Shown piece after piece: positions 23-48,171 of a stretch of 64,000 nucleotides of DNA. Both the position numbers and the translations under genes were made by a program. Under the pieces are notes generated by a model. It made no database searches. It was not told where the DNA came from and saw only the letters and a list, made by a program, of their open reading frames with translations. The stretch comes from Trypanosoma brucei (taxonomy: Eukaryota): positions 1,440,001 through 1,504,000 of the forward strand of contig CH464491.1 of the NCBI GenBank assembly GCA_000002445.1, in the 5' to 3' direction. Within the stretch, counting starts at the first letter, position 1. The number at the start of each line of letters is the position of its first letter.

Positions 23-853
23 GTGCAGTGCGGCCACTGTTACCGGTACACTTGCGTGCCACTGCGCGGAGATGGGGCGGAGAGTAAAGAAGTTGACCCA
101 CTTCTCTCCCAAGTTGTGCCATGTTCTCATTGTGGCTTGGACTGCTCATGGTCACCCGAATCATGTGACGGTGTGGAGAGGATAATAGATTCGTTGAAGG
201 AAGCGACATCTTGTCCATCGTATTATGAACTTCAGAAGTGGTTTCTGGTTAATGTTCGAAAAGTGAAGGAGCTTCGCGTGCACCCGGAGCACTGGCTGTA
301 CCGCATGCTGCTCTACTACTTTTGTTTTGTTGTTACTCCTTACATAGATGATGCGTTCGTGGGTTACCAAAGGGTTGGGTGGGGGGCGCCTAATGTTGGC
401 ATGTTGTTGCTCAACTTCGGGTTCTGCTCTGAATATAGTCTGCCCAGTGAAGGCGATTGTGGGACTGTGAGGTGCAATGATCCTAACACCGGTAATGTAA
501 CCAACAATGGCTCTCATGACACCGATTCTATCATGGATGGAAAGGTACTTGGCGATACGCTATACATTCTTTGCTTACTGTGGCGGTTGATTGAACCGTT
601 TTACCCACCATATGAAGGATGGGCGGTGCATCGCGCAATATGTTACATGGTGCTCTTTGCACACACCCATCCAAAAGGAGAAATGGTCTTACCTGGGTCC
701 CTGACACTGCAGCTACTTAGCAAACATGGAAAATACATTGGAAGAAATGAATTATCTACGTGGGTTGCTGCGTATAGTCGTCACAAGCTACCAGACAGCC
801 AAAAGGGGATACTAAGCGTTAGGCAAATTAAAAAGGCAGTCGAGAAGGTGTAA
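23..853 (+). CDS. Hypothetical Cys-rich protein. It may be 5'-partial, because the reading frame is open back to the window start.
   Basis: 276-aa + strand ORF. The frame has no stop between position 2 and the first ATG at 23. It is co-oriented with all other genes. I recognised no domain. Confidence 0.35.
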   Translation: MQCGHCYRYTCVPLRGDGAESKEVDPLLSQVVPCSHCGLDCSWSPESCDGVERIIDSLKEATSCPSYYELQKWFLVNVRKVKELRVHPEHWLYRMLLYYFCFVVTPYIDDAFVGYQRVGWGAPNVGMLLLNFGFCSEYSLPSEGDCGTVRCNDPNTGNVTNNGSHDTDSIMDGKVLGDTLYILCLLWRLIEPFYPPYEGWAVHRAICYMVLFAHTHPKGEMVLPGSLTLQLLSKHGKYIGRNELSTWVAAYSRHKLPDSQKGILSVRQIKKAVEKV

Positions 854-1948
854 GGTACTTTCTCCATGAGAGCTAAAAAAAAAATCGCATATGTAAAAGT
901 TTTTCCTTCTTGCTCTTTTGTACACATATACTTCTGTATGATATTAAGTGGACCCTAGTTTTCTGTTTTGTTTTATTTGTGAGAGATTCTCAACCAGATA
1001 TTTCAGTTTATCGCTACGTTACTGGTGTCGAGTAGTAGTTGTGGTGAAGCCGAAAAGTAAAATAACCCGAACTCTCCACCGTTATCAAGTAATAATAGTG
1101 GTAATAATTACAATTCTCTCACTCTGATTTTTTTAAACTTTATCCCCCGCTTGATGTACTGTGGTTCCTTTCCCACTTATCATTTTCTTCCTCCATTTTC
1201 CGTTTCTTATGTTTTTTTCTTTTTGATTACTTGTGTTGTTCTTAATTTTGTTGGTACCAAACTACACATCATGTTGTGCGGTCGCGAAAATATATGAGTT
1301 TGCGTATCTGTATGTGCTGTTGCCTCGGCCTGGGGATGGACCATCCTCCTTTCTTTCAGCCCCCCTCTGCAGCGAGCTTTGGTCCTGCACACATGAATTA
1401 AAGAGAGCGAAATGAATGGGGAACAAAAAAAATAATAATAAAAGGTACATGGTGGCGTCTATGTGTTAGGCCACTGCGCTATCATTGATTGCACGGAGGA
1501 TGGTGAATTTTTTTTTTTGGTGCGGAGTTGTGTTGTTGAGTTGTCACACTCTGCGATCACTTCCGTGTGTTATGAAGTTTGCCCGCTTTTTCGCCTGCTC
1601 TGCTACCTGGGCATTCTTCAGTTGGACTCGTTCGCGTTGTGGCTGCGTGCTCTGATGTGGCTGCGTGTAATAGTCGTAATATGCTCGTGTAGTGATTCTG
1701 ACTAATCACGTTTCTTATACTGATACATTTTTTCTTTTCTTTTCAACATTGAGCCATACTCCGTGTATGGCGGTTACCTTTTATACAATAACTGGATACA
1801 TTCATTTCACTTTTCTCTCTTATTTGCTGACGCCTTTTTCGACGCCCCGGGCGAAGCTATGCGGTCACCATGGTATTGTTATGTGCCAGCGTTACGTTAT
1901 TAGAGGAAACCCATGCATAGGTTATAAGTTTTGCTTGTAATCATCACC

Positions 1949-2017
1949 TCCTTCTCTGCTCCCTACTGCCATCGTCTCTCCAATTTTTTCTTTTTTCTTC
2001 TTCTTATTTTTTTTTTG
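1949..2017 (+). promoter_or_regulatory. Polypyrimidine tract plus AG, a putative trans-splice acceptor signal for the downstream gene.
   Basis: An almost pure C/T run of about 70 nt, with AG at 2019-2020, lies about 30 nt upstream of the ATG at 2048. The ORF-track start at 1931 would translate this tract (MLVIITSF...FFFFLLLIFF), which is not plausible coding sequence. Confidence 0.5.
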
Positions 2018-2047
2018 AAGGCGCTGGAAGTTGGTGCGGGAAATCTG

Positions 2048-3883
2048 ATGGTGGAACTTACAGTGTACGAAGGTCATGATGTTTTTCTCCAGAACGCCGT
2101 GCGGTTGCACATTCCTTGCAAGGTTGATACGATTGAAGGACTTCTGTCACTAGTTGGTAGGGCAGTAGCATCCTCCCCTGGAGGCCCTTCAGCGGCAAGG
2201 AGGTATCGTTTTGTTTACTCGTTAGATGGCTCGCCTTTGAGGAGCGTCGATGAATGCCTTGAGGTGGGAACGGTGATCGTAAGCTGCACGCCTGGGTTTC
2301 AAAAACGCAAACATCATGTCGAGTCACCGTCCAACCCGGTACTTGACTTGCTCAACAGGAAAGGGTATGAAACATATAGTGCTGCGGAGAGCCGAGGCTT
2401 GTCCGCCACTCCTCCATCCCACGACGGTTTCGTGCCGATTTCTTTCCAACAACATTCAGTTTCTCGCGCATCCCCAAAATATGTTTTCTGCGATAGTAAT
2501 CCTGGGCCTATTCCCAATTTTTCGTCAATTGGGGGAGCTTCCGTGGAATGGGGTGGAGTGTCCTGCCGTGTTGGGGATGAGAGGATTGTTCTTCCACCAA
2601 CACCCAGTTTTGACGTACCGTTTCCCGACATGAATTTAGACATATCGCACGCTGAACGCGTCGCTGCTGTGAAAACGCTGATAACACTGAAACTGTGCGG
2701 GCGTTCCTTCTTGAATGACGAACTTCTTTTCGAAAAAGAGCTTGAGGAGGTATTTCGACCTATTGTTGCAGAACAGGCCTCGTGTCCATCGTGGAGGGAT
2801 CAGACTTTAGATCGACCTCCCCCTCATGTAGTGGTGGATGGCCCCCCAAAAAGTGGTGTTTCGACTTCCCTGGCGTATTACAGTTCCATGCTGGTCTCGT
2901 CGGCGGCGAGTCGGTATGCCACATTTCTGATATTGCCGCTGAACTTTGAGCTTCTATTTGACGGATCGTTGGGCATTTCATCTTACAGTGCAAATCGTCA
3001 TTTGAGGGGGAGTAAAAGTGCAAATTATAATGATGCAAGAACTCAGTCACTACTTTTGGACGTTCCGTTCTTCTATATGACAGTAGTTCGTGCTCTCATA
3101 GACTCTGTTGTTGCTCAACGCCCTAGTGTGCGTAACTGTTCCACGGCACTTGTGGAAATGTGGGAACAACTTATCAAAACAACCGCAGGCAGCGGGGTTC
3201 GTTTGAACACATGCGAGGTCGCGCACGCCGTTGGGCACTCTGCGCTTTATAGATGGGAGACATTTGCCGCCCCTGCTTCCCAGATACTGAGGGCTGCCAA
3301 ATTGAACCCACGCGACATGAAACTACGTGATGCCGTGTTGGAATTAGTGCTAGTGGAGCTCGTAGCGCAGGTCGCTTCAGCACTTCACTTTTCCGGTGTT
3401 GTGTATGTGGTTGACGGACTGCGGCCGCTTGCACGTTCGTTGTGCGACCGATTGAGGCGACCGGGTGGAGATGCAGCTGTTTTCCTGGACCGAGTTGCAC
3501 AACGGTCATGGGTTCATCTTGCCGTTGGTGTTGATTCCCTTTCGACCCAGGTGTTAGAATCCGCTCTGCTTACTCGGGTGCGCCGCGTCAAACTTCTCCG
3601 TATGCTTTCCGTGGAATATGTAACGAAGATGTACGGGTTCCCCAAGGCTATACACTGTGGCAGCAATAAGTATCCACTTGAGATGTTTCTTGGAACACCT
3701 GGTTACCTGCGAATGGTGCACGACCTTCTGCGCTCGTGTGAAGGTCGTAAGGCTCACAAGGGAGATTCGGACGGTTACGCTGTTCGGATTGAAGATTTGG
3801 ATGTCTCTAACGCCCTGCTGGAATTTGAAGCGGTGCGAAAGTTGGGACAGGATACGCAAAAAGAAATGTGGTCATTGTCGTGA
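2048..3883 (+). CDS. Hypothetical protein with an N-terminal doublecortin-like (DCX, ubiquitin-like fold) domain.
   Basis: 612 aa from the ATG at 2048. Residues ~3-95 (ELTVYEGHDVFLQNAVRLHIPCKVDTIEGLLSLV...RRYRFVYSLDGSPLRSVDECLEVGTVIVSCT) follow the DCX-repeat pattern (R-Y-hydrophobic-hydrophobic ... DGS ... SVDEL-EVG ... hydrophobic ... C). Downstream there is a degenerate P-loop-like stretch, VVVDGPPKSGVSTS. Confidence 0.55.
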   Translation: MVELTVYEGHDVFLQNAVRLHIPCKVDTIEGLLSLVGRAVASSPGGPSAARRYRFVYSLDGSPLRSVDECLEVGTVIVSCTPGFQKRKHHVESPSNPVLDLLNRKGYETYSAAESRGLSATPPSHDGFVPISFQQHSVSRASPKYVFCDSNPGPIPNFSSIGGASVEWGGVSCRVGDERIVLPPTPSFDVPFPDMNLDISHAERVAAVKTLITLKLCGRSFLNDELLFEKELEEVFRPIVAEQASCPSWRDQTLDRPPPHVVVDGPPKSGVSTSLAYYSSMLVSSAASRYATFLILPLNFELLFDGSLGISSYSANRHLRGSKSANYNDARTQSLLLDVPFFYMTVVRALIDSVVAQRPSVRNCSTALVEMWEQLIKTTAGSGVRLNTCEVAHAVGHSALYRWETFAAPASQILRAAKLNPRDMKLRDAVLELVLVELVAQVASALHFSGVVYVVDGLRPLARSLCDRLRRPGGDAAVFLDRVAQRSWVHLAVGVDSLSTQVLESALLTRVRRVKLLRMLSVEYVTKMYGFPKAIHCGSNKYPLEMFLGTPGYLRMVHDLLRSCEGRKAHKGDSDGYAVRIEDLDVSNALLEFEAVRKLGQDTQKEMWSLS

Positions 3884-4464: not shown

Positions 4465-5403
4465 TTGTTCCATATGCCCAGTTGGTGTCTTATTGAAAGC
4501 GATCCAGCGGTTTTCACGGAGCTTATCCAACGGTTCGGCGCCCAAGGCGTGGCCGTTGAGGAAATCGTACAGCTTGAGCAGGAGTATCTACGCGTCCACA
4601 CTAATGTCTACGGTCTGATTCTTCTTTTCAAATGGAAAGCAAGGAAGGAAGGTGCTGCGACTGATGGTGTAGTCGTTCCAGATGCCCCTGTATTTTTCGT
4701 CCAGCAGACTGTTAACAACGCCTGTGCCACGCTTTCCATCGTGAATATTCTCCTGAACCACAAGGAGAGTATTGAACTTGGGGAGGTGTTAGGCAATTTT
4801 CTCTCCTTCACCCAGGACATGAATCCGTATCTTCGAGGCACGCAAGTGGGCGAGTGTGATGCCCTTCGTGAGGCTCACAACTCTTTTGCGCCGGTGGAAC
4901 TCTTCTCTTTAGACCATAGTGTGCCTGATGCAGGCGATGCATACCACTTTGTTTCGTTTGTGTACAAGAACAGTGCCATATGGGAACTAGATGGGCTTCA
5001 GGAGGGACCTATTCTCGCCTCCGATGCTAGTGATGAGAACTACAGGGACAAACTGATGGAAGTTGTGCGGAAACGCATCAGGGATCACAGCGCTGAGGAC
5101 ACGACAGGAGCTGGGCAGGGGATTTCCTTCTCTCTCATGGCTGTGGTTGATGATCCCCTTGTATTGTTGGAGAGGAGAATATACGAAGCGACACTACAGG
5201 AGGCCCCCACGCATTATTTGGAGGAGCAGTTGAATCAACTGACGAAACAGCGTGCGCGTGAAAAACTCGAAAACCAGCGCAGGCGTCATAATTACGTTCC
5301 TATGATCGTGGAGTTGTTGAAGGCACTCGCTGAGAAGGGGCAGTTGAAGGGGATCTTGGACGATGCGCTCGCAAAAAAAAGTGGTCAAGGGGCTAAGCAG
5401 TAG
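4465..5403 (+). CDS. Ubiquitin C-terminal hydrolase, peptidase family C12, UCH37/UCHL5-like.
   Basis: 312 aa. WCLIESDPAVFTELIQRFG, QTVNNACATLSIVNILLN (the catalytic Cys box), HFVSFV and WELDGL (the His box) all align with human UCHL5. The C-terminal KEKE/ULD-like tail (RRRHNYVPMIVELLKALAE) matches the UCH37 C-terminal extension. Confidence 0.9.
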   Translation: MFHMPSWCLIESDPAVFTELIQRFGAQGVAVEEIVQLEQEYLRVHTNVYGLILLFKWKARKEGAATDGVVVPDAPVFFVQQTVNNACATLSIVNILLNHKESIELGEVLGNFLSFTQDMNPYLRGTQVGECDALREAHNSFAPVELFSLDHSVPDAGDAYHFVSFVYKNSAIWELDGLQEGPILASDASDENYRDKLMEVVRKRIRDHSAEDTTGAGQGISFSLMAVVDDPLVLLERRIYEATLQEAPTHYLEEQLNQLTKQRAREKLENQRRRHNYVPMIVELLKALAEKGQLKGILDDALAKKSGQGAKQ

Positions 5404-11518: not shown

Positions 11519-12481
11519 TTGGGTGGTTGTGGTTCGAATTTCCAAGCAGTTCATCAACCAACTCAAACTGCAGCTCGCGCATACGCAAGAGACACATCAT
11601 CAATTATTAGGCGAGGGCCAATATTGCGGTCCAGACGGTGGTGGGGCATGTTGAATGCGGCGCTTTACGAGCGGACGCAAATTATAATCGGAGATGAGGG
11701 CGTGAAAAGGCTCCATCAGGTTAATATATTTCTTGCTGGAGTTGGGGGTGTGGGAGGCCACTGTGCTGAGGCTCTCGTGCGAGGTGGCGTCGGTAAGATT
11801 ACCATATGCGACTACGATGTTGTGTCCGCGACCAATAAAAATCGACAACTCGTGGCAATGGATAGCACTGTAGGAAAAAGCAAGGTAGACGTCCTTGCTC
11901 GTCGGTTGCAGGACATCAACGCCCACTGTCGCGTGACAGCATTGGAGGCGTTGTTGCTTCCAGAGGATATGGAGGATTTTTTGACACGTCAGCGCTACGA
12001 TTATGTGGTGGATTGCATTGACAGCGTCGAGTGTAAGGTTGCGCTGCTGAGCACAGCGGTGCGACTCGGGCTGCGCACGTATGCCTCATGTGGTGCTGGC
12101 GGCCGGGTGGACCCTTCACTCGTTAGGGTTAGTGACATTTTTGACACCGTGAACGACGCCTTAGCTCGCTGTTGTCGAAGTGAGCTACGTAAGCGCGGTG
12201 TTGGACCTGGTGCCATTACAGCTGTGCACAGTAGTGAGTTGGGTTGTCCTCCCTTGGAACCCCAACGGCAAGAGGCGGGTGGACGGGACCGAGCCATCAA
12301 CGGTACGGTAAGTTACATGCCACCTTTGTTCGGGCTGTTGCTTGCATCTTCTGTACTGAGGCACGCGGTGGACCCTGTAAAAGCAGAAAAAGAAGCAGAG
12401 CGGAGATTGAAGAAGGCAAAGAAAGAGGAGGCTCGGGCTCACAAGAAGGCTTCCCGGTTGGTAGGCGTGAAACGATGCTGA
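11519..12481 (+). CDS. ThiF/MoeB-family E1-like enzyme of the TcdA/CsdL (yeast Tcd1/Tcd2) type, a tRNA threonylcarbamoyladenosine dehydratase, with a C-terminal membrane anchor.
   Basis: NIFLAGVGGVGGHCAEALVRGGVGKITICDYDVVSATNKNRQL is the Rossmann/ATP motif of ThiF-family proteins and aligns closely with E. coli TcdA. Residues ~265-285 form a C-terminal hydrophobic stretch (YMPPLFGLLLASSVLRHAV) followed by a basic tail, as in yeast Tcd1. Confidence 0.8.
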   Translation: MGGCGSNFQAVHQPTQTAARAYARDTSSIIRRGPILRSRRWWGMLNAALYERTQIIIGDEGVKRLHQVNIFLAGVGGVGGHCAEALVRGGVGKITICDYDVVSATNKNRQLVAMDSTVGKSKVDVLARRLQDINAHCRVTALEALLLPEDMEDFLTRQRYDYVVDCIDSVECKVALLSTAVRLGLRTYASCGAGGRVDPSLVRVSDIFDTVNDALARCCRSELRKRGVGPGAITAVHSSELGCPPLEPQRQEAGGRDRAINGTVSYMPPLFGLLLASSVLRHAVDPVKAEKEAERRLKKAKKEEARAHKKASRLVGVKRC

Positions 12482-14558: not shown

Positions 14559-17500
14559 ATGGTGTATGAGAGTGAATCTTGCAGAAATATTACTTCTGCT
14601 GAAGATCGTGGTAGGGCATCGTCAGTCGTCGTGGAGCACCTGCGCGCTGCAATCGTTCAGGCAATGAAGAGTTCTGAGACGGCGGAGCTCGTCGCATTAA
14701 TATGTGACAACAACGGGCTAACGGTGGAGGAATTTCTTCAGGCGCCGCATGAATTTACGGAAATGGAACTTTTTCTGCTGGCGACACCACAGCTTCCTCA
14801 ACTGCGCTTATTTCCGTACCTTACCGTTGTTAAGGTCATGCACGTTGGACTGGAAAGTATGGAGCCTTTTTCACCTCTGCACCACATAGAGGAGTTGTGG
14901 TTGTGCGATAACAACATCACTGTGATTGAGGGCGTGCGGCAAATGCGGAGCCTCAAATATCTTTATTTGCAGGGCAATCTTATCGAGTCAATGGATGGTA
15001 TTCCGTCTCTTCCCAATCTGGAAAGACTGTGGCTCTGTAGGAATCGGCTCCAGAATATACGGAAGCTTGATTTACTGCCGCAGTTACGGTCGCTGTGGGT
15101 CGCATCGAACCGTATCACGTCACTGGAGGGCGCTTTTGATTCCAGTATGACTGCATTGGAGGAACTTAACTTGTCCAACAATCAAATATATTTCTTCGGA
15201 CAAATCAAGAATTTGAGTGTTCTCAAATCTCTTCGCGTTCTGTGGCTGAGTGACCCTATGTACGGTGACGCCCCCATTTATCACTTGAGTAATTACACTA
15301 CCTTTTCATTGCAACATTTACCACACTTGGAGCAACTCGATGGTGTTTCAATTACGATGGAGCAACGTTCATTGACCGTGTCTGTGTACGCAAAAAAGAG
15401 CATATATTACAGCATGAGAGGGGCTATACTCAACGGTAATGTAGCTCTCATGTATAAATTTGCGCAACAGGAGGCGGAGAAGAAACGCAACTTCGCGCGC
15501 GATGCGATACGTCGTTTGGATATACAACTGATGAAGTTAGGCGAGTATGGCCGTGACGGCCAATATGTGAGTCGAGTTGTAACCGCCGAAGAGGAAGCGC
15601 ACCGTCAAACGCTGAAGCGTGCGCGAGAAACCCGGGAGGTGGAATTAGAGGGGATTGAAAGACAGTTATTAGAAGCATGGAGCCGGACCACGTTCGAAAC
15701 GGAAAGTTTACACGAGAGACTGCTTCTAGAACTTAATTCGTGTGGAAGCATTCGACTAGAAGAAGGCTCTGAAGCCGATAGTTGGTATGTCAATGCCGGG
15801 GAATTGCTGACTTCGCGCTTTGACGCCGATTTGTACGAAGGTATGGGCGTGACGGGCGTAAAGGTGAATCGCGTGTTTCGCATTACCTGTCAGGGCCTGC
15901 GGGAGCGCTTTGACAACCGGATACGTGAACTTGACGTTGACCTCGCAGATACTCGAAACCGACGCGCACTAATTCGTCTCTTTAGTGCAATACCTCGACA
16001 TGCTAAAGACCAGCGTAGTTTCCTGTATGAGGTAATGACTAATGGTTTTCCTGGACTCTATGCTGAGGATGAGGGTGTACCTTTAACGAACAGTTTGTTT
16101 TACGCGGATCAAGAACGACTTCTTTCATTGAAGAGGAATCGGAATATATTCGGTCTGACGTCGCAACCGGATCAACTTTCCGCCCAGCTTTTGGTCTCAC
16201 GCTTATTCCTAGGCAAATGTGTTGCAGAGATGGGAGGCGGTCGGGACACCAGTTTGGAAGAAGGAGGTGATAAGGCTGTCGAACAGCCTTTCATGACCGG
16301 ACGCCGCAAAGTCACGAGGCGACACTATGGTGACGGGGTATTTTCTGTTTATCGCGCATCCGAACACAACCCTGCTGTGAAGGTGTGGCACGTCTTTGAT
16401 AAGTGTCTCTTGCTTCCCGAGTACGTGATTGATTTTACGTACACGACGAAAGCGCACCTCACCATCAGTCCTCCACTGTCCATGTATGATAAAAGGGAAT
16501 CGTTACAAGCTCTGCTTGATAAAGTAATGCCTATGGGCGCCCAAGACGCTATCAACGACGCGCGGACGGCAGGATATCCACTGCTTCACTTCTTGCATTG
16601 GTTGGACAGCAACGCCTTTCATGTTTATAGCAGTGGTGAGACGGAGAAGGCTATTAGTCGCGCCAAGGAACTATACCAACCTAAACACGGTCTGATGCTT
16701 ATCAATGGGCCACTCACTAATGAACTAGTGGACTCATACATTAGCAACTACGGCACTCTTAGTGACTCTATGTTAACATATTGTGACATATCTGAAAAGC
16801 AAATTCATTGCATCCCAGAATCACTCACCACTTCCGCGTGGGGAGCACTGAAAACACTTCTTCTACACCATAATAAAATAACTACTGTTGCGTGGGAGGC
16901 CCTTGCAAACGCTGCTCCGACCCTCGAAACGTTAGACCTTGGAAACAATGAAATTGCGCGAATCGATCTCGGAGCTGCATCGTTTCCAGGCCTGAAAAAA
17001 TTGTGTTTGAGCTTCAACAGCTGTAGTGCGATGGATGACCTGCGTCAGTTGCCGGCGAAGATGCCGGAGTTGTGCTGCCTTCACATAGACCATAATCCGT
17101 GGATGATGAACAAGGTTGTGGAGCCCTTTTGCGTTTCTATCATGCCAGAGTTGCAGCAACTCAATGGTATTGCCATCTCAAGGCATGCCCGCCTCAGCTA
17201 TTTACGGAAGCGAACTTTAATGCTGAACCAGTCTACGTTGCAGTACATAGTTTCTGAAGAGCAGAAATTGCGCGCGGAGTCGGCGACCGAAGCATTTCCC
17301 AACAGTGGGTGCGGGAATGTGTTAGATGACAGTAGTAGTAGTAACAATAACAATAGCGATGTCTTTAGATCACGCTACTTCGAGCAGGTGATTGCGAACA
17401 TGGCTGATAGGGTGAACCAGGATCGCCCGTTCGCGCCAACTGCGGGGAAGGAGTTGTCAGGACCACCACTGAGAAGTGTTCGCGCCTTTTCATTTCATAG

Positions 17501-19055
17501 TAGTCTTAGCAGTGATATCAAGTGGGTCACACTACTGCCGCAGTTACGTCATCTTAGTCTTACTTCTCACCTAATAGAGGATATTAGTCCTCTGGCGCAG
17601 CTGCGGCATCTTAGGACACTGAATTTGAATGACAATCTTGTTAACTCAACAAAACCACTGGAAGGAATGAGGTTAATTTCCCTCGATCTTTCTAGAAATT
17701 GTCTTTATGAGGTGGACGGTATAGCAAGTCTTTGTGATTTGCGGTTTCTCTCCATCCGGCAGAACTTCATCACCAGTGTTACGGAACTACAGAATTGTCT
17801 TTCCCTTGAAGAACTATACCTTGCAGACAATAATGTCCCCGATGTACGTGAATTGTGCTTGCTTCAGAGCTTACCGAAACTAGTTTCAATGGACGCTGCG
17901 GGAAATCTTTGTGCTGAGCGTGAGAACGCGGAGAAGCTCACGGAGTATCGAGACTGTCTCTTGTACAATATGCCAAAGCTGAAGGTGCTTGATGGTCTCC
18001 CTGTTGCGGAGGCCGACCAGCAACGTGCACGGGATGTTTTTGCGGGACGTGTAAGCGCTGACTTACTTATTGAGCGTGTGGGGCCCGTTGAAATGTGGGG
18101 CACGGCTCAAGAGGTGGATCTTTCACACTGCGGTTTGAGGGAGTTGACCTTACTCGATCCCTTCAGTTGCCTCAGGGTGCTCCACTTGCATCACAACAAT
18201 TTGGAACGGATTGATGGGCTCTCATCCTTAACCAGTATTGTTGCACTTGATCTTTCCCACAACAGGTTGGGACATTGCGCCGTTGGCCGAGTGCTACGGA
18301 ATCTTCCGAACATTCATTCACTTTCTCTCGAGGGTAATCACATTACTGATGTTTCAGCCCTAAGCCTTGCTTTACCACGACTTCAATTTCTGAATCTCAA
18401 AGGGAACGAAATTTCTTCGATTGAAACGGGCTTACAAGACCTCCCAGCACTACGCGAACTACTGTTGGACAACAACAAATTACGTGCCTTAGGACCCGAT
18501 TGCTTTGCGAACAATCACCAGCTTACAGATGTTTCAGCCGACGAAAATTATATCCGCACCATCGATGGTCTGCAGTCGTTACCGAGGCTCTCAATCTTGT
18601 CACTTGGGTCCAACCGACTTGGCGATATCCGTGCAATCGCCCAGGTTCTGCGGCACAGCGGCTGCCTCGCTGCTGCCACCTTTATAGGGAATGCTGTTGC
18701 CCGTAAACCTCCGTATCGCGTGCATATGATAGCGGCACTTCCCACGCTAACAACTCTGGATCATCGTGAGATTACTGATGATGAACGTGAGCGAGCTGAA
18801 TTGATGCGTAACGCGGAGATCGGTACTCCGCATAATGTCGTACTCGATACAACTTTCCCCGCTGAAGCGGTGGGTGGTGCCCGAGCGAGTGCTCCTGTTG
18901 GGACCCTTCGCTCGATTGTGTTACATTCGCATCGCTTTCCTGCCCCAGCAACCCCGCGCCTCCAACTGCCGGTATGTAAAAACCCTCGTGGGGAGCAGCA
19001 TGGACGAGAGGGCGTTGGGAAGGGATTTGCTCCGCGGCTACACGGTGCCCGTTAA
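14559..19055 (+). CDS. Large leucine-rich-repeat protein (1498 aa) with three blocks of SDS22-like LRRs.
   Basis: The repeat LxxLxLxxNxIxxIxxL recurs many times (LWLCDNNITVIEGV..., LYLQGNLIESMDGI..., LWLCRNRLQNIRKL..., LNLNDNLVNSTKPL..., LHLHHNNLERIDGL..., LSLEGNHITDVSAL...). The blocks fall at about aa 100-260, 980-1130 and 1190-1380, separated by coiled-coil and low-complexity spacers. Confidence 0.85.
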   Translation: MVYESESCRNITSAEDRGRASSVVVEHLRAAIVQAMKSSETAELVALICDNNGLTVEEFLQAPHEFTEMELFLLATPQLPQLRLFPYLTVVKVMHVGLESMEPFSPLHHIEELWLCDNNITVIEGVRQMRSLKYLYLQGNLIESMDGIPSLPNLERLWLCRNRLQNIRKLDLLPQLRSLWVASNRITSLEGAFDSSMTALEELNLSNNQIYFFGQIKNLSVLKSLRVLWLSDPMYGDAPIYHLSNYTTFSLQHLPHLEQLDGVSITMEQRSLTVSVYAKKSIYYSMRGAILNGNVALMYKFAQQEAEKKRNFARDAIRRLDIQLMKLGEYGRDGQYVSRVVTAEEEAHRQTLKRARETREVELEGIERQLLEAWSRTTFETESLHERLLLELNSCGSIRLEEGSEADSWYVNAGELLTSRFDADLYEGMGVTGVKVNRVFRITCQGLRERFDNRIRELDVDLADTRNRRALIRLFSAIPRHAKDQRSFLYEVMTNGFPGLYAEDEGVPLTNSLFYADQERLLSLKRNRNIFGLTSQPDQLSAQLLVSRLFLGKCVAEMGGGRDTSLEEGGDKAVEQPFMTGRRKVTRRHYGDGVFSVYRASEHNPAVKVWHVFDKCLLLPEYVIDFTYTTKAHLTISPPLSMYDKRESLQALLDKVMPMGAQDAINDARTAGYPLLHFLHWLDSNAFHVYSSGETEKAISRAKELYQPKHGLMLINGPLTNELVDSYISNYGTLSDSMLTYCDISEKQIHCIPESLTTSAWGALKTLLLHHNKITTVAWEALANAAPTLETLDLGNNEIARIDLGAASFPGLKKLCLSFNSCSAMDDLRQLPAKMPELCCLHIDHNPWMMNKVVEPFCVSIMPELQQLNGIAISRHARLSYLRKRTLMLNQSTLQYIVSEEQKLRAESATEAFPNSGCGNVLDDSSSSNNNNSDVFRSRYFEQVIANMADRVNQDRPFAPTAGKELSGPPLRSVRAFSFHSSLSSDIKWVTLLPQLRHLSLTSHLIEDISPLAQLRHLRTLNLNDNLVNSTKPLEGMRLISLDLSRNCLYEVDGIASLCDLRFLSIRQNFITSVTELQNCLSLEELYLADNNVPDVRELCLLQSLPKLVSMDAAGNLCAERENAEKLTEYRDCLLYNMPKLKVLDGLPVAEADQQRARDVFAGRVSADLLIERVGPVEMWGTAQEVDLSHCGLRELTLLDPFSCLRVLHLHHNNLERIDGLSSLTSIVALDLSHNRLGHCAVGRVLRNLPNIHSLSLEGNHITDVSALSLALPRLQFLNLKGNEISSIETGLQDLPALRELLLDNNKLRALGPDCFANNHQLTDVSADENYIRTIDGLQSLPRLSILSLGSNRLGDIRAIAQVLRHSGCLAAATFIGNAVARKPPYRVHMIAALPTLTTLDHREITDDERERAELMRNAEIGTPHNVVLDTTFPAEAVGGARASAPVGTLRSIVLHSHRFPAPATPRLQLPVCKNPRGEQHGREGVGKGFAPRLHGAR

Positions 19056-28369: not shown

Positions 28370-29902
28370 ATGCAAGGGACCGCATGTGCTAGCGCATATG
28401 CCAGGTACAACTGCCGCCAGAAGCAATACCACGGCATGCGCAACGCCGTTCAATTCGTGTTCCCTCTTCTGAGGAAAGTTTTATCTTTTGCCAGAACTCC
28501 CCCTCGCGAGCAGCTGTTGAGCATGTTGGTAGGTGCCCCTTATTCGCTAGCGCACGAGGGTCCTTTAACTTGCACTCACCTGCACGCATTTGTCAACACT
28601 CCTGAGGGCGAACTTCTACGCATGTTCGAGGGATGCATTGCAGAACGGCTTGCAGCGCCACCTTCGCAACATGTGATGAAAATGTGGTCACCTGACTTGC
28701 AGGAATATTACAAACGCGCAACTGCCAAAGCGTGCGTGGACGCATCAGGCGAAAGGAAACCACAGAGATTCGAGGCTGGTCTAAGTGCTTGTAGCGTTTT
28801 TTCATTAGGAGTACAAAATCACACTGTCGAGAGCGATCTCTGGGGGGAATTCGGAAGCGGACATACACATCAAGGCACTTATTTGAACCCGTTTGGAGAT
28901 CAGGCTGCACGTGAAGGTGAGGAGGACATAGCGAGTGATTGGTGTCGCTTAATTGACATGTACTCCTTGTTTTTACCAGATCGCTCTCCGTTGCATGAGT
29001 TGGAGAACCTTCCACAAGAAATCGGAATTGGCGAACTCTTGCTGTCACTCCTGAAACATGTCTACATGACTGATATAGATATCAAAACGATTGTGGATGT
29101 GGGTGGCGGTAATGGTTTTTTAGCTGCACAGCTCGCAGAACGGCTTGGTTGTGAATCTTTTGTGGTCGACCCATTTACACCTAAACATGCTATTGATAAT
29201 GCGAATTTTCCACACTGGACCGTGGGAGCTCGCGTTAGGCAACGCAGGGAACGTCGATATCCGCTGCACCGTATTTCCAAGCGACTACAGGATGTTGACT
29301 GGGGAAATACTCACATAGATTTTGATTCTTGTGCCGTTGTGGCAAAGCACCTCTGTGGAACTTCTGTTGATAGTTGTTTGCGTCATTTAATGGCTTCTAA
29401 CAAGCTTCCTCGGGTACTGGTTGTGGTCCCCTGCTGTTTTAATAAGGGAAGATACGCTGAATACTGTAACCCTGGTTTCCTCTCTCATGTGGCTGATGTG
29501 GAAGGTGAGTTGTCGTGGGAGCAGTGCACTCGCCTCACTGATTGGAATAAATCCTGTTACCAACAAGCTGGGAATCCATTAAGTTGCTCGTCTTGTTGCA
29601 GCTGTTGTAATGGTAGTTATGATCGAAGAGCTGGGGAGAAGAAAGTCAGCCGGAAAAGGAAGATGGAACACTTTCTTCCTTGTATGGACGACATAGCTAC
29701 TCTAGTGGAGGTGATTATAAATTATGGACGCGTGCTGTGGCTGCGTGAGATGGGTTACCAGACCTCCGTCGTAGAATATGTTCCTCGCTGTGTTACACCG
29801 AAGAATCGAGCAATTGTAGCGGTGCGCAGAGAACGCAGTAGTGACGCAAGTCTGGAAATTACGATGTCGGACACACACCCCTCATTACCTGCCTTTCAAT
29901 AA
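28370..29902 (+). CDS. Putative SAM-dependent methyltransferase (METTL25/Methyltransf_32-like).
   Basis: Class-I methyltransferase motif I, IVDVGGGNGFLAAQLAERLG, is followed by an acidic post-I residue (FVVDPF). 510 aa with Cys clusters near the C-terminus (CSSCCSCCNGS). Confidence 0.55.
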   Translation: MQGTACASAYARYNCRQKQYHGMRNAVQFVFPLLRKVLSFARTPPREQLLSMLVGAPYSLAHEGPLTCTHLHAFVNTPEGELLRMFEGCIAERLAAPPSQHVMKMWSPDLQEYYKRATAKACVDASGERKPQRFEAGLSACSVFSLGVQNHTVESDLWGEFGSGHTHQGTYLNPFGDQAAREGEEDIASDWCRLIDMYSLFLPDRSPLHELENLPQEIGIGELLLSLLKHVYMTDIDIKTIVDVGGGNGFLAAQLAERLGCESFVVDPFTPKHAIDNANFPHWTVGARVRQRRERRYPLHRISKRLQDVDWGNTHIDFDSCAVVAKHLCGTSVDSCLRHLMASNKLPRVLVVVPCCFNKGRYAEYCNPGFLSHVADVEGELSWEQCTRLTDWNKSCYQQAGNPLSCSSCCSCCNGSYDRRAGEKKVSRKRKMEHFLPCMDDIATLVEVIINYGRVLWLREMGYQTSVVEYVPRCVTPKNRAIVAVRRERSSDASLEITMSDTHPSLPAFQ

Positions 29903-40742: not shown

Positions 40743-43040
40743 ATGGATATCGTTAATAACAATGGTTCTTTTGTGACACGCACTACTGTTTCCCGTCCCA
40801 TTCCGTTTGAGCGCTATCGTAAACCGTGCATCGCCACTTACCCGAGAAGTGCCGTTTTTCTCAACAAGCGCCGCGCGAATGAGCTACATTGCAGTGGCGC
40901 ACCCGGAAATGAAAATGGAAGTGATGACAATGCGTCTTCCCTCGCCTTTGGTGAAGATAATGGAAAGAATGAGGCGGCAGACGATGACGACCCGCTGAAC
41001 ATCGACCCAGAAACAATGCTTTGCTCCGATGAGCAACTAAAACAAGTGCTTGCTCTCCGCTGGCGCGACGTTGGTCCTAACGGATGCGGGTTGCAGAACA
41101 TGGGAAATACATGCTTTATCAATTGCGTGCTTCAAGCGATAGCGTATACACCTGCTCTTTCGCAATACTTTTCGACTACTTTCCGTTCTCCACACACAGA
41201 CCGGGTGTTGAATGCGCCATTTGACTACGCTTATGCTTTGGGAGAGACAATTCGTAAAATACACACTCCTTCGAGAAACGCATATAAACCAACCGTAATC
41301 ATCAGCAACATTAAGGTGCTTTCACCACACTTTCGCCTTGGAGTGCAAGGTGACGCGCATGAATTTGCCGTGCACCTGCTGCATGCGTGCCACCGTTCAA
41401 TTTTGTTTAGGCAAGTGGGTTCTCGTAAGCTGCCGCAACACATCGAACAAACTTCGACATTACAGCGGATCGTTGGTGGTTACCTTCGTTCCACTGTCAC
41501 TTGGAGTAGGCGGGAGGAGATTCATTACTTGTTAAAGGAGGGGAACCTTCAGGAAGCAAGTAACTTAAAGATGAACGCGAATTCGCGCAAAAGTGATAGT
41601 GATGATGGACACAAGGAACTCATCTCCAACACATATGATCCATTTGTGACGCTTAGCCCAGAGATCTGTGGTCAAACGCTCGAACACTGTTTGTCCAAAC
41701 TCTGCGCGAAGGAAAGGTTGGAGGGACGGGTGTATATAACGCCTCGCGGCGTTACCGTGAACGCTACTAAACAATTTATGTTGCATAAGTTACCGAATGT
41801 TTTAATTATCCATTTGAAACGTTTCAATGAGTTCGGGGCGAAGGTTGGGAAGTTTGTACGATACCCGAAGATACTGAACGTGGGGCCCTTTTGCACGACC
41901 GATGGAACGTTGAAAAAGCTACGTAACCACAAGAGGAGGGGTTACAAGCCCTCGAATGGTCCCGCTAGTTGTGACAGCAGCATTTATAATAGCGAAGCGA
42001 GCAATAGGTCAGTTGAGTGCCTATACGAATTGAACGCCATTTGTGTCCACCAGGGTTCCTCGCTCTCCCATGGGCACTACTTCAGTGTTGTTCGCGCACG
42101 CAATGAATCGTGGATTGAGTGCAATGATGGCCACATTTCACATTGCAGCGAGGACCATGCCCTATCGCAGTCAGCGTATATGCTTTTCTACTCCCGAGTA
42201 GCGGAAAGCTCTGCCACGCCCGATATCAAGTGCAGTCGAGACAATCATACAACACACAGGGGCATGGAACTATCATCGGGTCGTGTTAAACCCTTTACGG
42301 GAAGTACACCACGTAAAATAGTGGGTGAGTGCCCTACTAGCGATGTAGGTCGTGAGTTAACCGACCAAGAGGCGCTACGACTTATTGGAAAGAAGAGAGA
42401 AGTACCCCAGCAGCAGTTAGTACAGACGAACGGTGAGAAGAGAGTTCAACATGTTGGTCTTCCAGCTAGGTTGAAAGGACTCAACACCAAGTCGTCATCA
42501 TCTACTGCTGTACGGGACAACAGCTCCAACAACTCACTGTGGAGTGAACAGGAGACGTGTTCATCTTCCTACGCTTCCTCGGCGGCTTTCGACAGAGAAG
42601 AGAATTCAGTTTGTTCTTCTCGGAAGAATAGTGCACCCGACAGATATTGCGGAATAGTGAAAGCCCTAAAGGTAAACGGGTCGAGGGATGTTGGAAAGGG
42701 AGGGACTTCTCCAACTGACCCTTTGGGGGGCCACAGAAGCAGCGTTGTGGGGGAGGAGGTGTTGAGGGCTATGGAAAAGCATAAGCTGGAGGCTCCATTG
42801 ACTGTTATGCGTCAACCCCATGCGCCAAAGTTTCGACAGCAAGTGCGAGATCCTTTGTGGGAGCAGGAGATGGATCGTGGCCGTACAAAGCGATCAAGGT
42901 TGAAGCGGGATGAAAGCACGGATGAGGAGAACAAATTTCAGAAGGCAGACATTGGGTTTGACAGCCGTGGAAGGCGTCTCCTGAACCAACGAAATGAACG
43001 AGCTAACGGCCGGAGTTTCGCCCACGGAAAATTCTCGTAA
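40743..43040 (+). CDS. Ubiquitin-specific protease (USP, peptidase C19).
   Basis: Cys box GLQNMGNTCFINCVLQAIAYTPAL. His box region HQGSSLSHGHYFSVVR...WIECNDGHIS...AYMLFYSRV. 765 aa, with an N-terminal extension and a basic Ser-rich C-terminal tail. Confidence 0.9.
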   Translation: MDIVNNNGSFVTRTTVSRPIPFERYRKPCIATYPRSAVFLNKRRANELHCSGAPGNENGSDDNASSLAFGEDNGKNEAADDDDPLNIDPETMLCSDEQLKQVLALRWRDVGPNGCGLQNMGNTCFINCVLQAIAYTPALSQYFSTTFRSPHTDRVLNAPFDYAYALGETIRKIHTPSRNAYKPTVIISNIKVLSPHFRLGVQGDAHEFAVHLLHACHRSILFRQVGSRKLPQHIEQTSTLQRIVGGYLRSTVTWSRREEIHYLLKEGNLQEASNLKMNANSRKSDSDDGHKELISNTYDPFVTLSPEICGQTLEHCLSKLCAKERLEGRVYITPRGVTVNATKQFMLHKLPNVLIIHLKRFNEFGAKVGKFVRYPKILNVGPFCTTDGTLKKLRNHKRRGYKPSNGPASCDSSIYNSEASNRSVECLYELNAICVHQGSSLSHGHYFSVVRARNESWIECNDGHISHCSEDHALSQSAYMLFYSRVAESSATPDIKCSRDNHTTHRGMELSSGRVKPFTGSTPRKIVGECPTSDVGRELTDQEALRLIGKKREVPQQQLVQTNGEKRVQHVGLPARLKGLNTKSSSSTAVRDNSSNNSLWSEQETCSSSYASSAAFDREENSVCSSRKNSAPDRYCGIVKALKVNGSRDVGKGGTSPTDPLGGHRSSVVGEEVLRAMEKHKLEAPLTVMRQPHAPKFRQQVRDPLWEQEMDRGRTKRSRLKRDESTDEENKFQKADIGFDSRGRRLLNQRNERANGRSFAHGKFS

Positions 43041-46458: not shown

Positions 46459-48171
46459 TTGCATTACCGGATGAATAATAGCCGCATTTGCGTTGCGGTG
46501 CGTAAACGCCCAATAGTTGATGTGGACAAGGATATTGTTGTGGCGCAGTCCCCGCATTTGGTTGTTAATGAACCAAAAGTGAAGTATGATCTGACGCCAT
46601 ACACGGAGCGGCATCAGTTCACCTATGACTGTGTACTGGATGAGAATTCCAACAACGCACTAGTGTATCAGCACTGCTGCTCAAAGCTCATTGATACTAT
46701 ATTTAACCAAGGTAACGCTACGTGTTTTGCATACGGTCAGACTGGCAGCGGCAAAACACACACTATGCTGGGTAATGATCACGAGGCAGGTCTCTACGCT
46801 ATTGCCGCAAAGGAGATATTTGCACGATCTGCCCCACTGAATTCTGACGTTTATGTTTCATTTTACGAGATTTACGGTCGGAAGATATTTGACCTTCTGA
46901 ACAACAAAGAAAAGTTAGTTGCCCGTGAGGACGCGGACAAGGTCATAAACATATGTGGGTTAACGGAACACAAGGTAACAGACATTCAGGGGCTTTTTGA
47001 CATCATTTCACGTGGAAGTACTTACCGTGCGGCTGGCCAAACAAGCGCTAACAACGAGAGTAGCCGGTCACATGCCGTACTACAGATAGAGGTACGTGAC
47101 CCTAATAATCGACGTGGTAAATCTATTGGGCGTATATCTTTTATTGACTTGGCTGGAAATGAGCGAGGAGCGGATACCTTTGACTGCGACCGCAAGACGC
47201 GTATGGAGGGAGCGGAGATCAACAAGTCTCTCCTTGCCTTAAAAGAATGTATTAGGGCATTGGGAATGGGCAAGTCGCACGTTCCATTTCGTGGCTCTAT
47301 TCTCACAGAGGTGCTGCGGGACTCATTTGTTGGTAATAGCCGTACAACAATGATCGCAACCATTTCTCCCACGTCAACTCACTGCGTGAACACCCTCAAC
47401 ACACTTCGGTACACTCAACGTGTAAAGGATCTCGGTGGTGAGGCAAAAGCAGCGCCGAATGAAAAGGCAGAGCGCCGTCCCGTGAGGAGATCGAAACTAT
47501 TCGAGGCACCGCCACCTCTCAAGGCTCGCCCAGAATGGGTTGACAACTTTAGCGCTAACGATGAGGAGCGCGGCGCGGAAGAGGAGGCTAACAGCCAAGC
47601 TGATGTCTCGAAAGCACCACCAAAACCTCGTGCCAATAAAATGGTCGGTAGCGGAGCAACTGGAGGCGGGGCACCGTCGGCTGGCGGCGCCAACAGGGGT
47701 CGGCCACCAAAGCGTGAGGTGGTTGTAAGGGACCCGAAGATCGCAACGATTGTTCAAAATCACATCTCAGCTCTTGATGATGATAGTGATGAAACTGATG
47801 AGGATGAAGAAGAGGCGCCAGCAGCAGGTGCTGTGCTAGATGCCTTGGCCAAGAGTGAAGAGAAGCAGGTGCGCAAAGTTCATGCCCATGTTGTGGAAGA
47901 AATCGCCAAAGCAGAAGAGAAACTGGTGGCTCTGCACCGTCGACACATTGACGCTAAAATGACAGGCATTAAGGATGAGATACGTGCCATCCAGGCTTTT
48001 GAAGAGTCTGACTCTGTAGATGAGTACGTGGGTCGTGTTCGCACTCTGCTGGTGAAGCAAAAGCAAGATGTGGAAACAATTCTTGATTTGCTTAACGGTA
48101 TCACTGGCATGCTCCGTGAGGAAGAAGAACTTTCTTGCACCCTGAACTCTTCCATGAAGAGACGCAATTAA
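46459..48171 (+). CDS. Kinesin-13 (MCAK/Kif2-like microtubule depolymerase) with the motor domain at the N-terminus.
   Basis: ICVAVRKRP. P-loop FAYGQTGSGKTHTM. Switch I NNESSRSHA. Switch II DLAGNERGADT. The kinesin-13-specific LALKECIRALG and KVD/KEC-class residues align almost residue-for-residue with the MCAK motor. The C-terminus has an acidic (DDDSDETDEDEEE) and coiled-coil tail. Confidence 0.9.
   Translation: MHYRMNNSRICVAVRKRPIVDVDKDIVVAQSPHLVVNEPKVKYDLTPYTERHQFTYDCVLDENSNNALVYQHCCSKLIDTIFNQGNATCFAYGQTGSGKTHTMLGNDHEAGLYAIAAKEIFARSAPLNSDVYVSFYEIYGRKIFDLLNNKEKLVAREDADKVINICGLTEHKVTDIQGLFDIISRGSTYRAAGQTSANNESSRSHAVLQIEVRDPNNRRGKSIGRISFIDLAGNERGADTFDCDRKTRMEGAEINKSLLALKECIRALGMGKSHVPFRGSILTEVLRDSFVGNSRTTMIATISPTSTHCVNTLNTLRYTQRVKDLGGEAKAAPNEKAERRPVRRSKLFEAPPPLKARPEWVDNFSANDEERGAEEEANSQADVSKAPPKPRANKMVGSGATGGGAPSAGGANRGRPPKREVVVRDPKIATIVQNHISALDDDSDETDEDEEEAPAAGAVLDALAKSEEKQVRKVHAHVVEEIAKAEEKLVALHRRHIDAKMTGIKDEIRAIQAFEESDSVDEYVGRVRTLLVKQKQDVETILDLLNGITGMLREEEELSCTLNSSMKRRN

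What the first reader, a model, noticed from the sequence alone, without database searches (positions are those of the whole stretch)
2048..3883. A protein with a doublecortin-like N-terminal domain fused to a large uncharacterised body carrying a degenerate P-loop-like motif
The first ~95 residues have the spacing and key residues of a DCX repeat (…RRYRFVYSLDGSPLRSVDECLEVGTVIVSCT). In animals this is a tubulin and microtubule-binding module. In trypanosomes, whose biology is dominated by the subpellicular and flagellar microtubule arrays, a DCX protein is a candidate cytoskeletal or flagellar component. The body contains VVVDGPPKSGVSTS, which resembles a Walker-A motif with a broken consensus. 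That may point to a pseudo-NTPase or a divergent NTP-binding fold. The ORF-track N-terminus (1931-2047) is translated polypyrimidine tract and should be trimmed.
Basis: inference. Interest (0 to 1): 0.5.

Follow-up and report, generated by a model that had tools for sequence, protein, structure and literature searches.

The report
Doublecortin-like domain fused to dead NTPase
This Trypanosoma brucei gene encodes a protein that joins a divergent doublecortin-type (microtubule-binder-like) domain to an ATPase-fold body that has lost its key catalytic lysine, although the same gene in other kinetoplastids still has that lysine; it is a plausible but untested cytoskeletal scaffold.

Summary
Window 2048-3883 (+) is a 611-aa gene, identical to T. 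brucei TREU927 XP_828588.1 / UniProt Q385Q5, which UniRef already names "Doublecortin domain-containing protein".

**N-terminal domain (residues 1-88).** It models as a beta-grasp fold. Its 19 best PDB matches are all doublecortin domains. Sequence support is specific but weak: Pfam DCX scores 14 bits against a cut-off of 22, and hhalign against human N-DC gives 89%.

**Body (residues about 196-611).**
- It has no Pfam family.
- Homologues occur across Euglenozoa.
- Six kinetoplastid homologues share conserved gene order, downstream of a SET-domain gene and (five of six) directly upstream of a UCH37-like gene. Three of them keep a canonical Walker A (GK[ST]T).
- All Trypanosoma and Leishmaniinae-like sequences have Val or Ile in place of the lysine. 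Trypanosoma also has Arg where relatives carry an acidic residue after Walker B.

Microtubule binding and localisation remain untested, and I could not recover the gene ID or TrypTag data. This is a new domain combination and an uncurated NTPase family, of moderate interest.

The parts
1947..2020 (+). Pyrimidine-rich tract followed by AG (2019-2020), 28 nt upstream of the ATG. Candidate trans-splice acceptor region, not coding.
   Evidence: Sequence read. There is no in-frame ATG between 1931 and 2048. The annotated protein starts at 2048. The splice-site role is inferred from general trypanosome gene structure.
2048..3883 (+). Coding sequence of 611 aa plus stop. Equals T. brucei TREU927 XP_828588.1 / Q385Q5.
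2048..2311 (+). Residues 1-88: divergent doublecortin-type beta-grasp domain.
2312..2632 (+). Residues 89-195: poorly conserved, low-confidence linker. It holds a short conserved V-L-P-P-T-P-x-F element near residues 181-191.
   Evidence: pLDDT below 50 for residues 84-169. Gappy, variable alignment with invariant P184 and P191.
2633..3880 (+). Residues 196-611: P-loop NTPase-fold module (AAA+/STAND-like) with a large helical insert. No curated family covers it.
2828..2866 (+). Residues 261-273, VVVDGPPKSGVST: strand 1 plus a Walker-A-like loop with Val271 (codon GTT) in place of the lysine.
   Evidence: Homologues in conserved gene order have GPQGSGKST, GPGGSGKTT and GPPRSGKTT (AAG codons) at the aligned position.
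3110..3133 (+). Residues 355-362, VAQRPSVR: family-specific conserved motif in the helical insert. Role unknown.
   Evidence: Invariant V355, A356, Q357, R358, P359 and R362 in Trypanosoma. [QH]-R-P-x-L-R recurs in diplonemid and euglenid relatives.
3398..3424 (+). Residues 451-459, VVYVVDGLR: Walker-B-like strand with conserved Asp456. Arg459 sits where many relatives have Asp or Glu.
   Evidence: Motif table. D456 is nearly invariant across 29 sequences.
3692..3709 (+). Residues 549-554, GTPGYL: nearly invariant G-x-P-G-[YF]-L motif, 93 residues after Walker B. Candidate counterpart of the STAND 'GxP' motif.
   Evidence: P551 is invariant and G549 nearly invariant across 29 sequences. The equivalence to the STAND GxP motif is my inference from recalled family descriptions and was not tested.
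23..853 (+). Upstream neighbour (partial): homologue of the SET-domain gene that lies upstream of this gene's relatives in four of the kinetoplastid loci examined.
   Evidence: tblastn. Pfam SET on the matching genes.
4465..5403 (+). Downstream neighbour: UCH37-like deubiquitinase (Peptidase_C12 + UCH_C). It anchors the conserved gene order used to argue orthology.
   Evidence: Pfam. The same neighbour lies directly downstream in L002, L003, L005, L006 and L007 at 36-53% identity.

Best explanation
The gene encodes a kinetoplastid two-module protein.

**Module 1 (residues 1-88)** is a divergent doublecortin-type beta-grasp domain.

**Module 2 (residues about 196-611)** follows a disordered linker of about 100 residues. 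It has the fold and motif order of an AAA+/STAND-class P-loop NTPase: strand-P-loop, Walker B Asp, then a conserved GxPGYL motif about 90 residues later.

**Degeneracy in Trypanosoma.**
- The nucleotide site is degenerate. The Walker A lysine is Val271, and the position three residues after the Walker B Asp is Arg459 instead of an acidic residue.
- The rest of the loop is invariant across Trypanosoma.
- Homologues in other kinetoplastids, sitting in the same gene neighbourhood, keep GK[ST]T. The lysine was therefore lost within this gene lineage, probably more than once.

**Most likely mode of action (inferred, not shown).** The NTPase-fold module now serves as a non-hydrolysing scaffold for self-association or partner binding. 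The DCX module docks the assembly on a tubulin or microtubule surface. In relatives with an intact site, a nucleotide switch would regulate that assembly.

**My confidence in each layer.** Domain anatomy about 0.85. Loss of catalysis about 0.7. Microtubule docking about 0.35-0.4.
For: - **Identity and gene model:**
- **DCX fold:**
- **DCX-specific sequence signal:** (7 of 22 family members hit Pfam DCX, best E 8.6e-4).
- **Canonical Walker A in relatives:**, with codons checked.
- **Orthology by conserved gene order (SET-like gene, this gene, UCH37-like gene):**
- **Constraint on the degenerate loop:** G265, P266, S269, G270, V271 and T273 are invariant among 7 Trypanosoma sequences.
- **Repeated loss:** L003 (Lys) and L007 (Val) share gene order and GC content and group together in the NJ tree.
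Against: - No curated HMM threshold is reached for DCX or for any NTPase family.
- I obtained no experimental or localisation data.
- The protein matches no chain in the PDB copy, so it is not in any deposited trypanosome assembly held there.
- A single DCX domain binds microtubules weakly in animals (recalled, not tested).
- By my own numbering of the human sequence shown, checked only against recalled patient-mutation positions, human Arg59 aligns with Glu8 in Trypanosoma (alignment), so that basic position is not kept.
- Lys/Arg268 inside the loop is conserved in Trypanosoma and might partly compensate for the lost lysine.
Confidence: 0.55

Rival explanations
1. The body is still a working nucleotide-binding or hydrolysing NTPase with an unusual P-loop. 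The Trypanosoma-conserved Lys/Arg268 (GPP[KR]SGVST), or a residue supplied in trans, would take over the role of the missing Walker A lysine.
For: - The loop glycines and the Ser/Thr are invariant, and the Walker B Asp456 is kept.
- Position 268 is K or R in all 7 Trypanosoma sequences.
Against: - Other Val/Ile-type relatives have L, I, Y, G or S at the position of residue 268 (only P0011 has R), so there is no general compensation.
- Trypanosoma also replaced the acidic residue after Walker B with Arg.
- Substitution of the Walker A lysine classically abolishes nucleotide binding in P-loop NTPases (established knowledge).
Confidence: 0.2
2. The N-terminal beta-grasp domain is a general ubiquitin-like or adaptor module for protein-protein interaction, as in the N-terminal effector domains of STAND proteins or Ubl-AAA+ combinations. 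It would not bind tubulin, and the protein would have no cytoskeletal role.
For: - The DCX fold belongs to the ubiquitin-like beta-grasp assemblage, grouped with CAD as adaptor domains (PMC1949818).
- Weaker Foldseek hits include multi-ubiquitin, PB1 and ubiquitin domains.
- The layout of an N-terminal small domain followed by an NTPase is typical of STAND proteins (recalled).
- The gene sits next to a UCH37-like deubiquitinase across kinetoplastids.
- No localisation evidence points to microtubules.
Against: - DCX domains outrank every other beta-grasp type. They take the top 19 Foldseek hits, with E values of about 1e-3 to 3e-2 against 4e-2 or weaker for non-DCX domains.
- Only DCX is picked out at sequence level, by three independent searches.
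- Gene adjacency in trypanosomatid polycistrons does not normally imply shared function (established knowledge).
Confidence: 0.3
3. The DCX resemblance is a chance similarity of a small beta-grasp domain, and the Walker-like motifs are coincidental.
For: All curated HMM scores are below threshold.
Against: - Sequence, profile-profile and two structure searches converge on DCX.
- The Walker A position is canonical in homologues sharing the same gene neighbourhood, and the family profile retrieves only P-loop proteins.
Confidence: 0.05

Closest known systems
Doublecortin (DCX) domain proteins: human DCX and DCLK1 N-DC/C-DC repeats, DCDC2, Toxoplasma TgDCX (apicortin)
   Same: - Beta-grasp fold with DCX as the best structural match.
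- By my numbering of the human N-DC sequence shown, checked only against recalled patient-mutation positions, the aligned landmarks are: Tb Tyr7/Asp11 to Tyr58/Asp62, Arg54 to Arg102, Tyr57 to Tyr105, Asp60-Gly61 to Asp108-Gly109, Asp68-Glu69 to Asp117-Glu118, and a C-terminal aromatic.
   Different: - There is a single repeat rather than a tandem.
- It falls below the Pfam threshold.
- Human Arg59 aligns with Glu8 (same numbering).
- The partner domain is a P-loop NTPase fold, not a kinase, a p25-alpha domain or a second DCX repeat.
- Tubulin binding is untested.
- The 2006 survey of the DCX superfamily does not mention kinetoplastids (PMC1550402).
STAND / AAA+ P-loop NTPases (NACHT, AAA_16, nSTAND families, ORC/Cdc6) and the mitoribosomal P-loop protein mS29/DAP3
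   Same: - The motif order matches: a helix with hLF[RK]xE upstream, then Walker A, then hhhhD[GD]x[DE], then G-x-P about 90 residues later.
- Relatives give sub-threshold Pfam hits to AAA_16, NACHT and nSTAND3/5.
   Different: - No curated family threshold is met.
- A helical insert of about 100 residues, with its own conserved motifs, lies between strand 2 and Walker B.
- There is no C-terminal repeat or sensor domain.
- The T. brucei protein lacks the Walker A lysine.
- The family was found only in Euglenozoa.
[not shown]
   Same: An NTPase fold is kept under selection while a key nucleotide-site residue is lost.
   Different: There is no detectable sequence relationship. The partner proteins and assembly state of the trypanosome protein are unknown.

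Membership tests
Doublecortin domain (Pfam PF03607) | Match to the curated family HMM at its gathering score | tested here: not met
   E 0.052, 14.1 bits against a cut-off of 22 for residues 27-80. 7 of 22 family N-domains hit DCX, best E 8.6e-4. No match in any search reached the cut-off: the highest bit scores shown are 14.1-14.9. DCX is nevertheless the only or top family each time. UniRef names the protein a doublecortin domain-containing protein; the basis of that name is not visible here.
Doublecortin domain (Pfam PF03607) | Specific sequence similarity to solved DCX domains | tested here: inconclusive
   In the family profile search against the PDB, 10 of 11 hits are DCX or DCDC2, best E 0.014. 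hhalign against human N-DC gives 89% probability, pairwise E 2.3e-6, over 73 columns. This is specific but not strong.
Doublecortin domain (Pfam PF03607) | Ubiquitin-like beta-grasp fold closest to DCX domains | tested here: met
   [not shown]
Doublecortin domain (Pfam PF03607) | Binding to tubulin or microtubules | not testable with these tools
   No localisation or biochemical data were found.
P-loop NTPases, AAA+/STAND class | Walker A GxxxxGK[ST] | tested here: not met
   The T. brucei protein has G265-PPKS-G270-V271-S-T. The feature is met in related kinetoplastid genes sharing the same gene neighbourhood (P0018, P0036, P0035) and in diplonemid and euglenid relatives.
P-loop NTPases, AAA+/STAND class | Walker B hydrophobic strand ending in Asp | tested here: met
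   VVYVVD456 is conserved in 28 of 29 sequences. The following acidic residue is Arg in Trypanosoma.
P-loop NTPases, AAA+/STAND class | Three-layer alpha/beta fold matching solved AAA+/STAND domains | tested here: inconclusive
   [not shown]
P-loop NTPases, AAA+/STAND class | Match to a curated family HMM (NACHT, AAA_16, AAA, NB-ARC and others) | tested here: not met
   The T. brucei protein has no hit. Relatives give only sub-threshold hits.
P-loop NTPases, AAA+/STAND class | STAND-specific GxP motif and upstream GRExE-like helix | tested here: inconclusive
   Candidate motifs sit at the right spacing. Their equivalence rests on recalled descriptions of the family, not on an alignment to STAND proteins.
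P-loop NTPases, AAA+/STAND class | Nucleotide binding and hydrolysis | not testable with these tools
   This needs biochemistry.

The most novel reading that the evidence does not exclude
Kinetoplastids possess a lineage-specific microtubule-associated switch. In it, a STAND-like NTPase oligomerises single DCX domains into multivalent lattice binders that help pattern or cross-link the subpellicular or flagellar microtubules. Trypanosomatids have repeatedly frozen this switch by destroying the nucleotide site, turning a regulated assembly into a constitutive structural component.
Probability: 0.15. Interest if true: 0.7.

Novelty: new variant of a known kind. Interest (0 to 1): 0.45.

Why it matters
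- **Biological context.** Trypanosome shape, division and motility depend on microtubule arrays, and few of the proteins associated with them are understood. A doublecortin-type domain is one of the few recognisable tubulin-lattice readers.
- **New combination.** In the literature I could search, this domain has not been described joined to an NTPase-fold module.
- **Natural experiment.** The comparative series runs from orthologues with an intact Walker A to trypanosomatids with a dead one. It shows how an enzyme module becomes a pseudo-enzyme, and it offers ready-made controls for biochemistry.
- **Limit.** The protein is already flagged as DCX-containing in UniProt, and nothing yet shows that it acts on microtubules, so the practical value is as a well-defined candidate.

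Tried and rejected
- **PDB sequence searches.** The full protein and the 6-sequence N-domain profile found nothing. Only the wider 22-sequence profile reached DCX chains.
- **Word-indexed homologue searches.** They returned only the six Trypanosoma proteins. With the Lys-type core alignment they returned only two unnamed ENA proteins. Names and taxa for most distant relatives therefore stayed unknown. Only Leptomonas, two diplonemids and one euglenid were identified.
- **Pfam on body fragments.** No hits.
- **AFDB fold search.** That library was unavailable.
- **Foldseek PDB on the full-length model.** No body hit with E <= 0.001.
- **Literature.**
  - No paper in the library links doublecortin to a Tb927 gene.
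  - The TrypTag supplements held as text contain neither "doublecortin" nor the IDs I tried.
- **Gene-ID inference.**
  - I guessed Tb927.11.5130 by equating the window's ThiF gene with Tb927.11.5170.
  - I rejected the guess. Tb927.11.5230 is an EMSY-ENT protein and Tb927.11.5250 is listed only as a conserved hypothetical protein. Neither fits the TRM13-like and SNF2 genes that the window's gene order would place at those IDs.
- **Single-nucleotide path K to R to G to V at the Walker A position.** I dropped this idea because the Arg codon is CGG.

Full report
**What is there.**
- The + strand frame is open from 1931 to 3883. The first ATG is at 2048, and the product from there is 611 aa.
- That product is identical to T. 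brucei brucei TREU927 XP_828588.1 / EAN79476.1. GenBank lists it as a conserved hypothetical protein. UniRef lists it as "Doublecortin domain-containing protein" (Q385Q5).
- The 117 bases before the ATG contain no in-frame ATG. They are a pyrimidine-rich tract ending in AG. All Trypanosoma homologues begin at the same Met.
- All large ORFs in the first 14 kb, and nearly all in the window, are on the + strand, as expected for a trypanosome polycistron.

**N-terminal domain.**
- Pfam finds nothing in the whole protein. For residues 1-110 it finds only DCX (PF03607) at E 0.052 and 14.1 bits, below the 22-bit cut-off.
- An AlphaFold model of residues 1-90, built from six Trypanosoma sequences, has pLDDT 80. 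Its topology is strand-strand-helix-strand-helix-strand.
- In Foldseek against the PDB, the 19 best hits are all doublecortin domains: human DCX N-DC, DCLK, and Toxoplasma TgDCX. TM scores are 0.58-0.70 and identity is 9-21% (about 20% to the animal domains, 9-10% to TgDCX). Other beta-grasp types (multi-ubiquitin, PB1, ubiquitin) come after them.
- I built a 22-sequence profile of this domain from all relatives that have it. Ten of its 11 PDB hits are DCX or DCDC2, best E 0.014.
- Seven of the 22 members hit Pfam DCX individually, best E 8.6e-4.
- hhalign against human N-DC gives 89% probability over 73 columns.
- Conclusion: a divergent DCX-type domain. The evidence is specific and convergent, but each sequence test is weak on its own.
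- Using the human sequence shown, numbered by me from recalled patient-mutation positions (not independently checked), the aligned landmarks are:
  - Tb Asp11 with Asp62.
  - Arg54 with Arg102, Tyr57 with Tyr105, and Asp60-Gly61 with Asp108-Gly109.
  - Human Arg59 aligns with Glu8.

**Body.**
- Residues 89-195 are variable and modelled with no confidence.
- From about residue 196 the protein is well conserved. The full-length model is poor overall (pLDDT 53, pTM 0.48).
- Foldseek is weaker, with best body E 0.019.
- Profiles of the family hit only P-loop proteins in the PDB, and always around the Walker A strand-loop-helix.

**Relatives.**
- An exhaustive profile search of 1.84 billion representative proteins found 31 relatives.
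- The named ones are Leptomonas pyrrhocoris, the diplonemids Namystynia and Diplonema japonicum, and the euglenid Keelungia. The NTPase-like module is therefore Euglenozoa-wide.
- In my local HMM search, the DCX-like domain was present in the kinetoplastid-type relatives. It was not detected in the diplonemid and euglenid sequences (some of them fragments) or in the divergent P0028.
- At the aligned Walker A position, among the 29 aligned sequences (codons checked):
  - ten have Lys (GPxxSGK[ST][ST]; P0032 ends in SS);
  - one has Arg and one has Gly;
  - 17 have Val or Ile, including all 7 Trypanosoma sequences and five sequences that group with Leptomonas.
- Walker B Asp456 is kept almost everywhere.
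- Three residues after it, many relatives have Asp or Glu (DGxE, DDxD). All Trypanosoma sequences have Arg (DGLR).
- A G-x-P-G-[YF]-L motif lies 93 residues downstream and is nearly invariant.
- Relatives with an intact loop give sub-threshold Pfam hits to AAA_16, NACHT, nSTAND3/5 and AAA.
- I read the motif order as STAND-like. That step rests on recalled family descriptions.

**Orthology.**
- In T. brucei the gene lies between a SET-like gene (window 23-853) and a UCH37-like deubiquitinase gene (4465-5403).
- The UCH37-like gene sits directly downstream, on the same strand, of five relatives (36-53% identity). Their Walker A motifs are:
  - Leptomonas P0010 (GVST);
  - P0018 (GKST);
  - P0036 (GKTT);
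  - P0030 (GRST);
  - P0037 (GVST).
- The SET-like gene is directly upstream of P0035 (GKTT) and of the Leptomonas gene.
- These are therefore orthologues, and the lysine was lost inside this gene lineage.
- Two loci with the same gene order and GC content differ in state: L003 has Lys and L007 has Val. They group together in a neighbour-joining tree. This suggests more than one loss, but the tree is crude.

**Mechanism.**
- Shown: the domain anatomy, the degenerate nucleotide site, and its derivation from an intact one.
- Inferred: the T. brucei module no longer hydrolyses NTP and probably does not bind it. It is retained under constraint as an interaction or oligomerisation scaffold, since the loop is invariant in Trypanosoma. 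The DCX domain would target it to tubulin.
- The main rivals are an atypical but active site using Lys/Arg268, and a non-tubulin adaptor role for the beta-grasp domain. DCX is grouped with CAD among beta-grasp adaptor domains (PMC1949818).

**Known or new.**
- The DCX label already exists in UniProt.
- The body is unannotated and has no Pfam family.
- I found no paper that links doublecortin to this or any Tb927 gene.
- The 2006 DCX superfamily survey does not mention kinetoplastids.
- The protein matches no PDB chain.
- I rate it a new variant of known kinds: a new domain combination plus an uncurated NTPase family with a clear pseudo-enzyme trajectory. Its interest is moderate, because the function is still only a hypothesis.

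Noticed in passing
window 4465-5403, 11519-12481, 40743-43040, 49851-51821: Four ubiquitin-system-type genes lie in one 64-kb polycistron: a UCH37-like Peptidase_C12+UCH_C, a ThiF/E1-like protein, a USP-type hydrolase and a PPPDE (Peptidase_C97) protein. This is possibly coincidence. The UCH37-like gene is this gene's conserved neighbour across kinetoplastids.
   Followed up: partly
window 3059-3133 (residues 338-362): A strongly conserved family-specific motif, D-x6-V-x3-h-D-x-h-V-A-[QH]-R-P-x-L-R, lies in the helical insert between strand 2 and Walker B. It is kept from diplonemids to Trypanosoma and has no assigned role.
   Followed up: no
window about 2588-2620 (residues about 181-191): A short conserved V-L-P-P-T-P-x-F element sits inside the otherwise variable linker. 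It is modelled as a small hairpin with pLDDT about 60 and could be a docking motif.
   Followed up: no
L003 8001-10448 versus L007 8001-9791: Two unnamed kinetoplastid-like assemblies have the same gene order and 43% GC, but differ at the Walker A position (Lys AAG versus Val GTA). This hints at recent, independent loss of the lysine.
   Followed up: partly
window 28370-29902: This is a TRM13-like methyltransferase ORF. A published table gives the T. brucei TRM13 as Tb927.4.4030, on another chromosome, so this may be a second, divergent paralogue.
   Followed up: no
window 14559-19055 and 46459-48171: A 1498-aa leucine-rich-repeat protein and a 570-aa N-terminal-motor kinesin lie in the same transcription unit. 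I did not examine them further.
   Followed up: no
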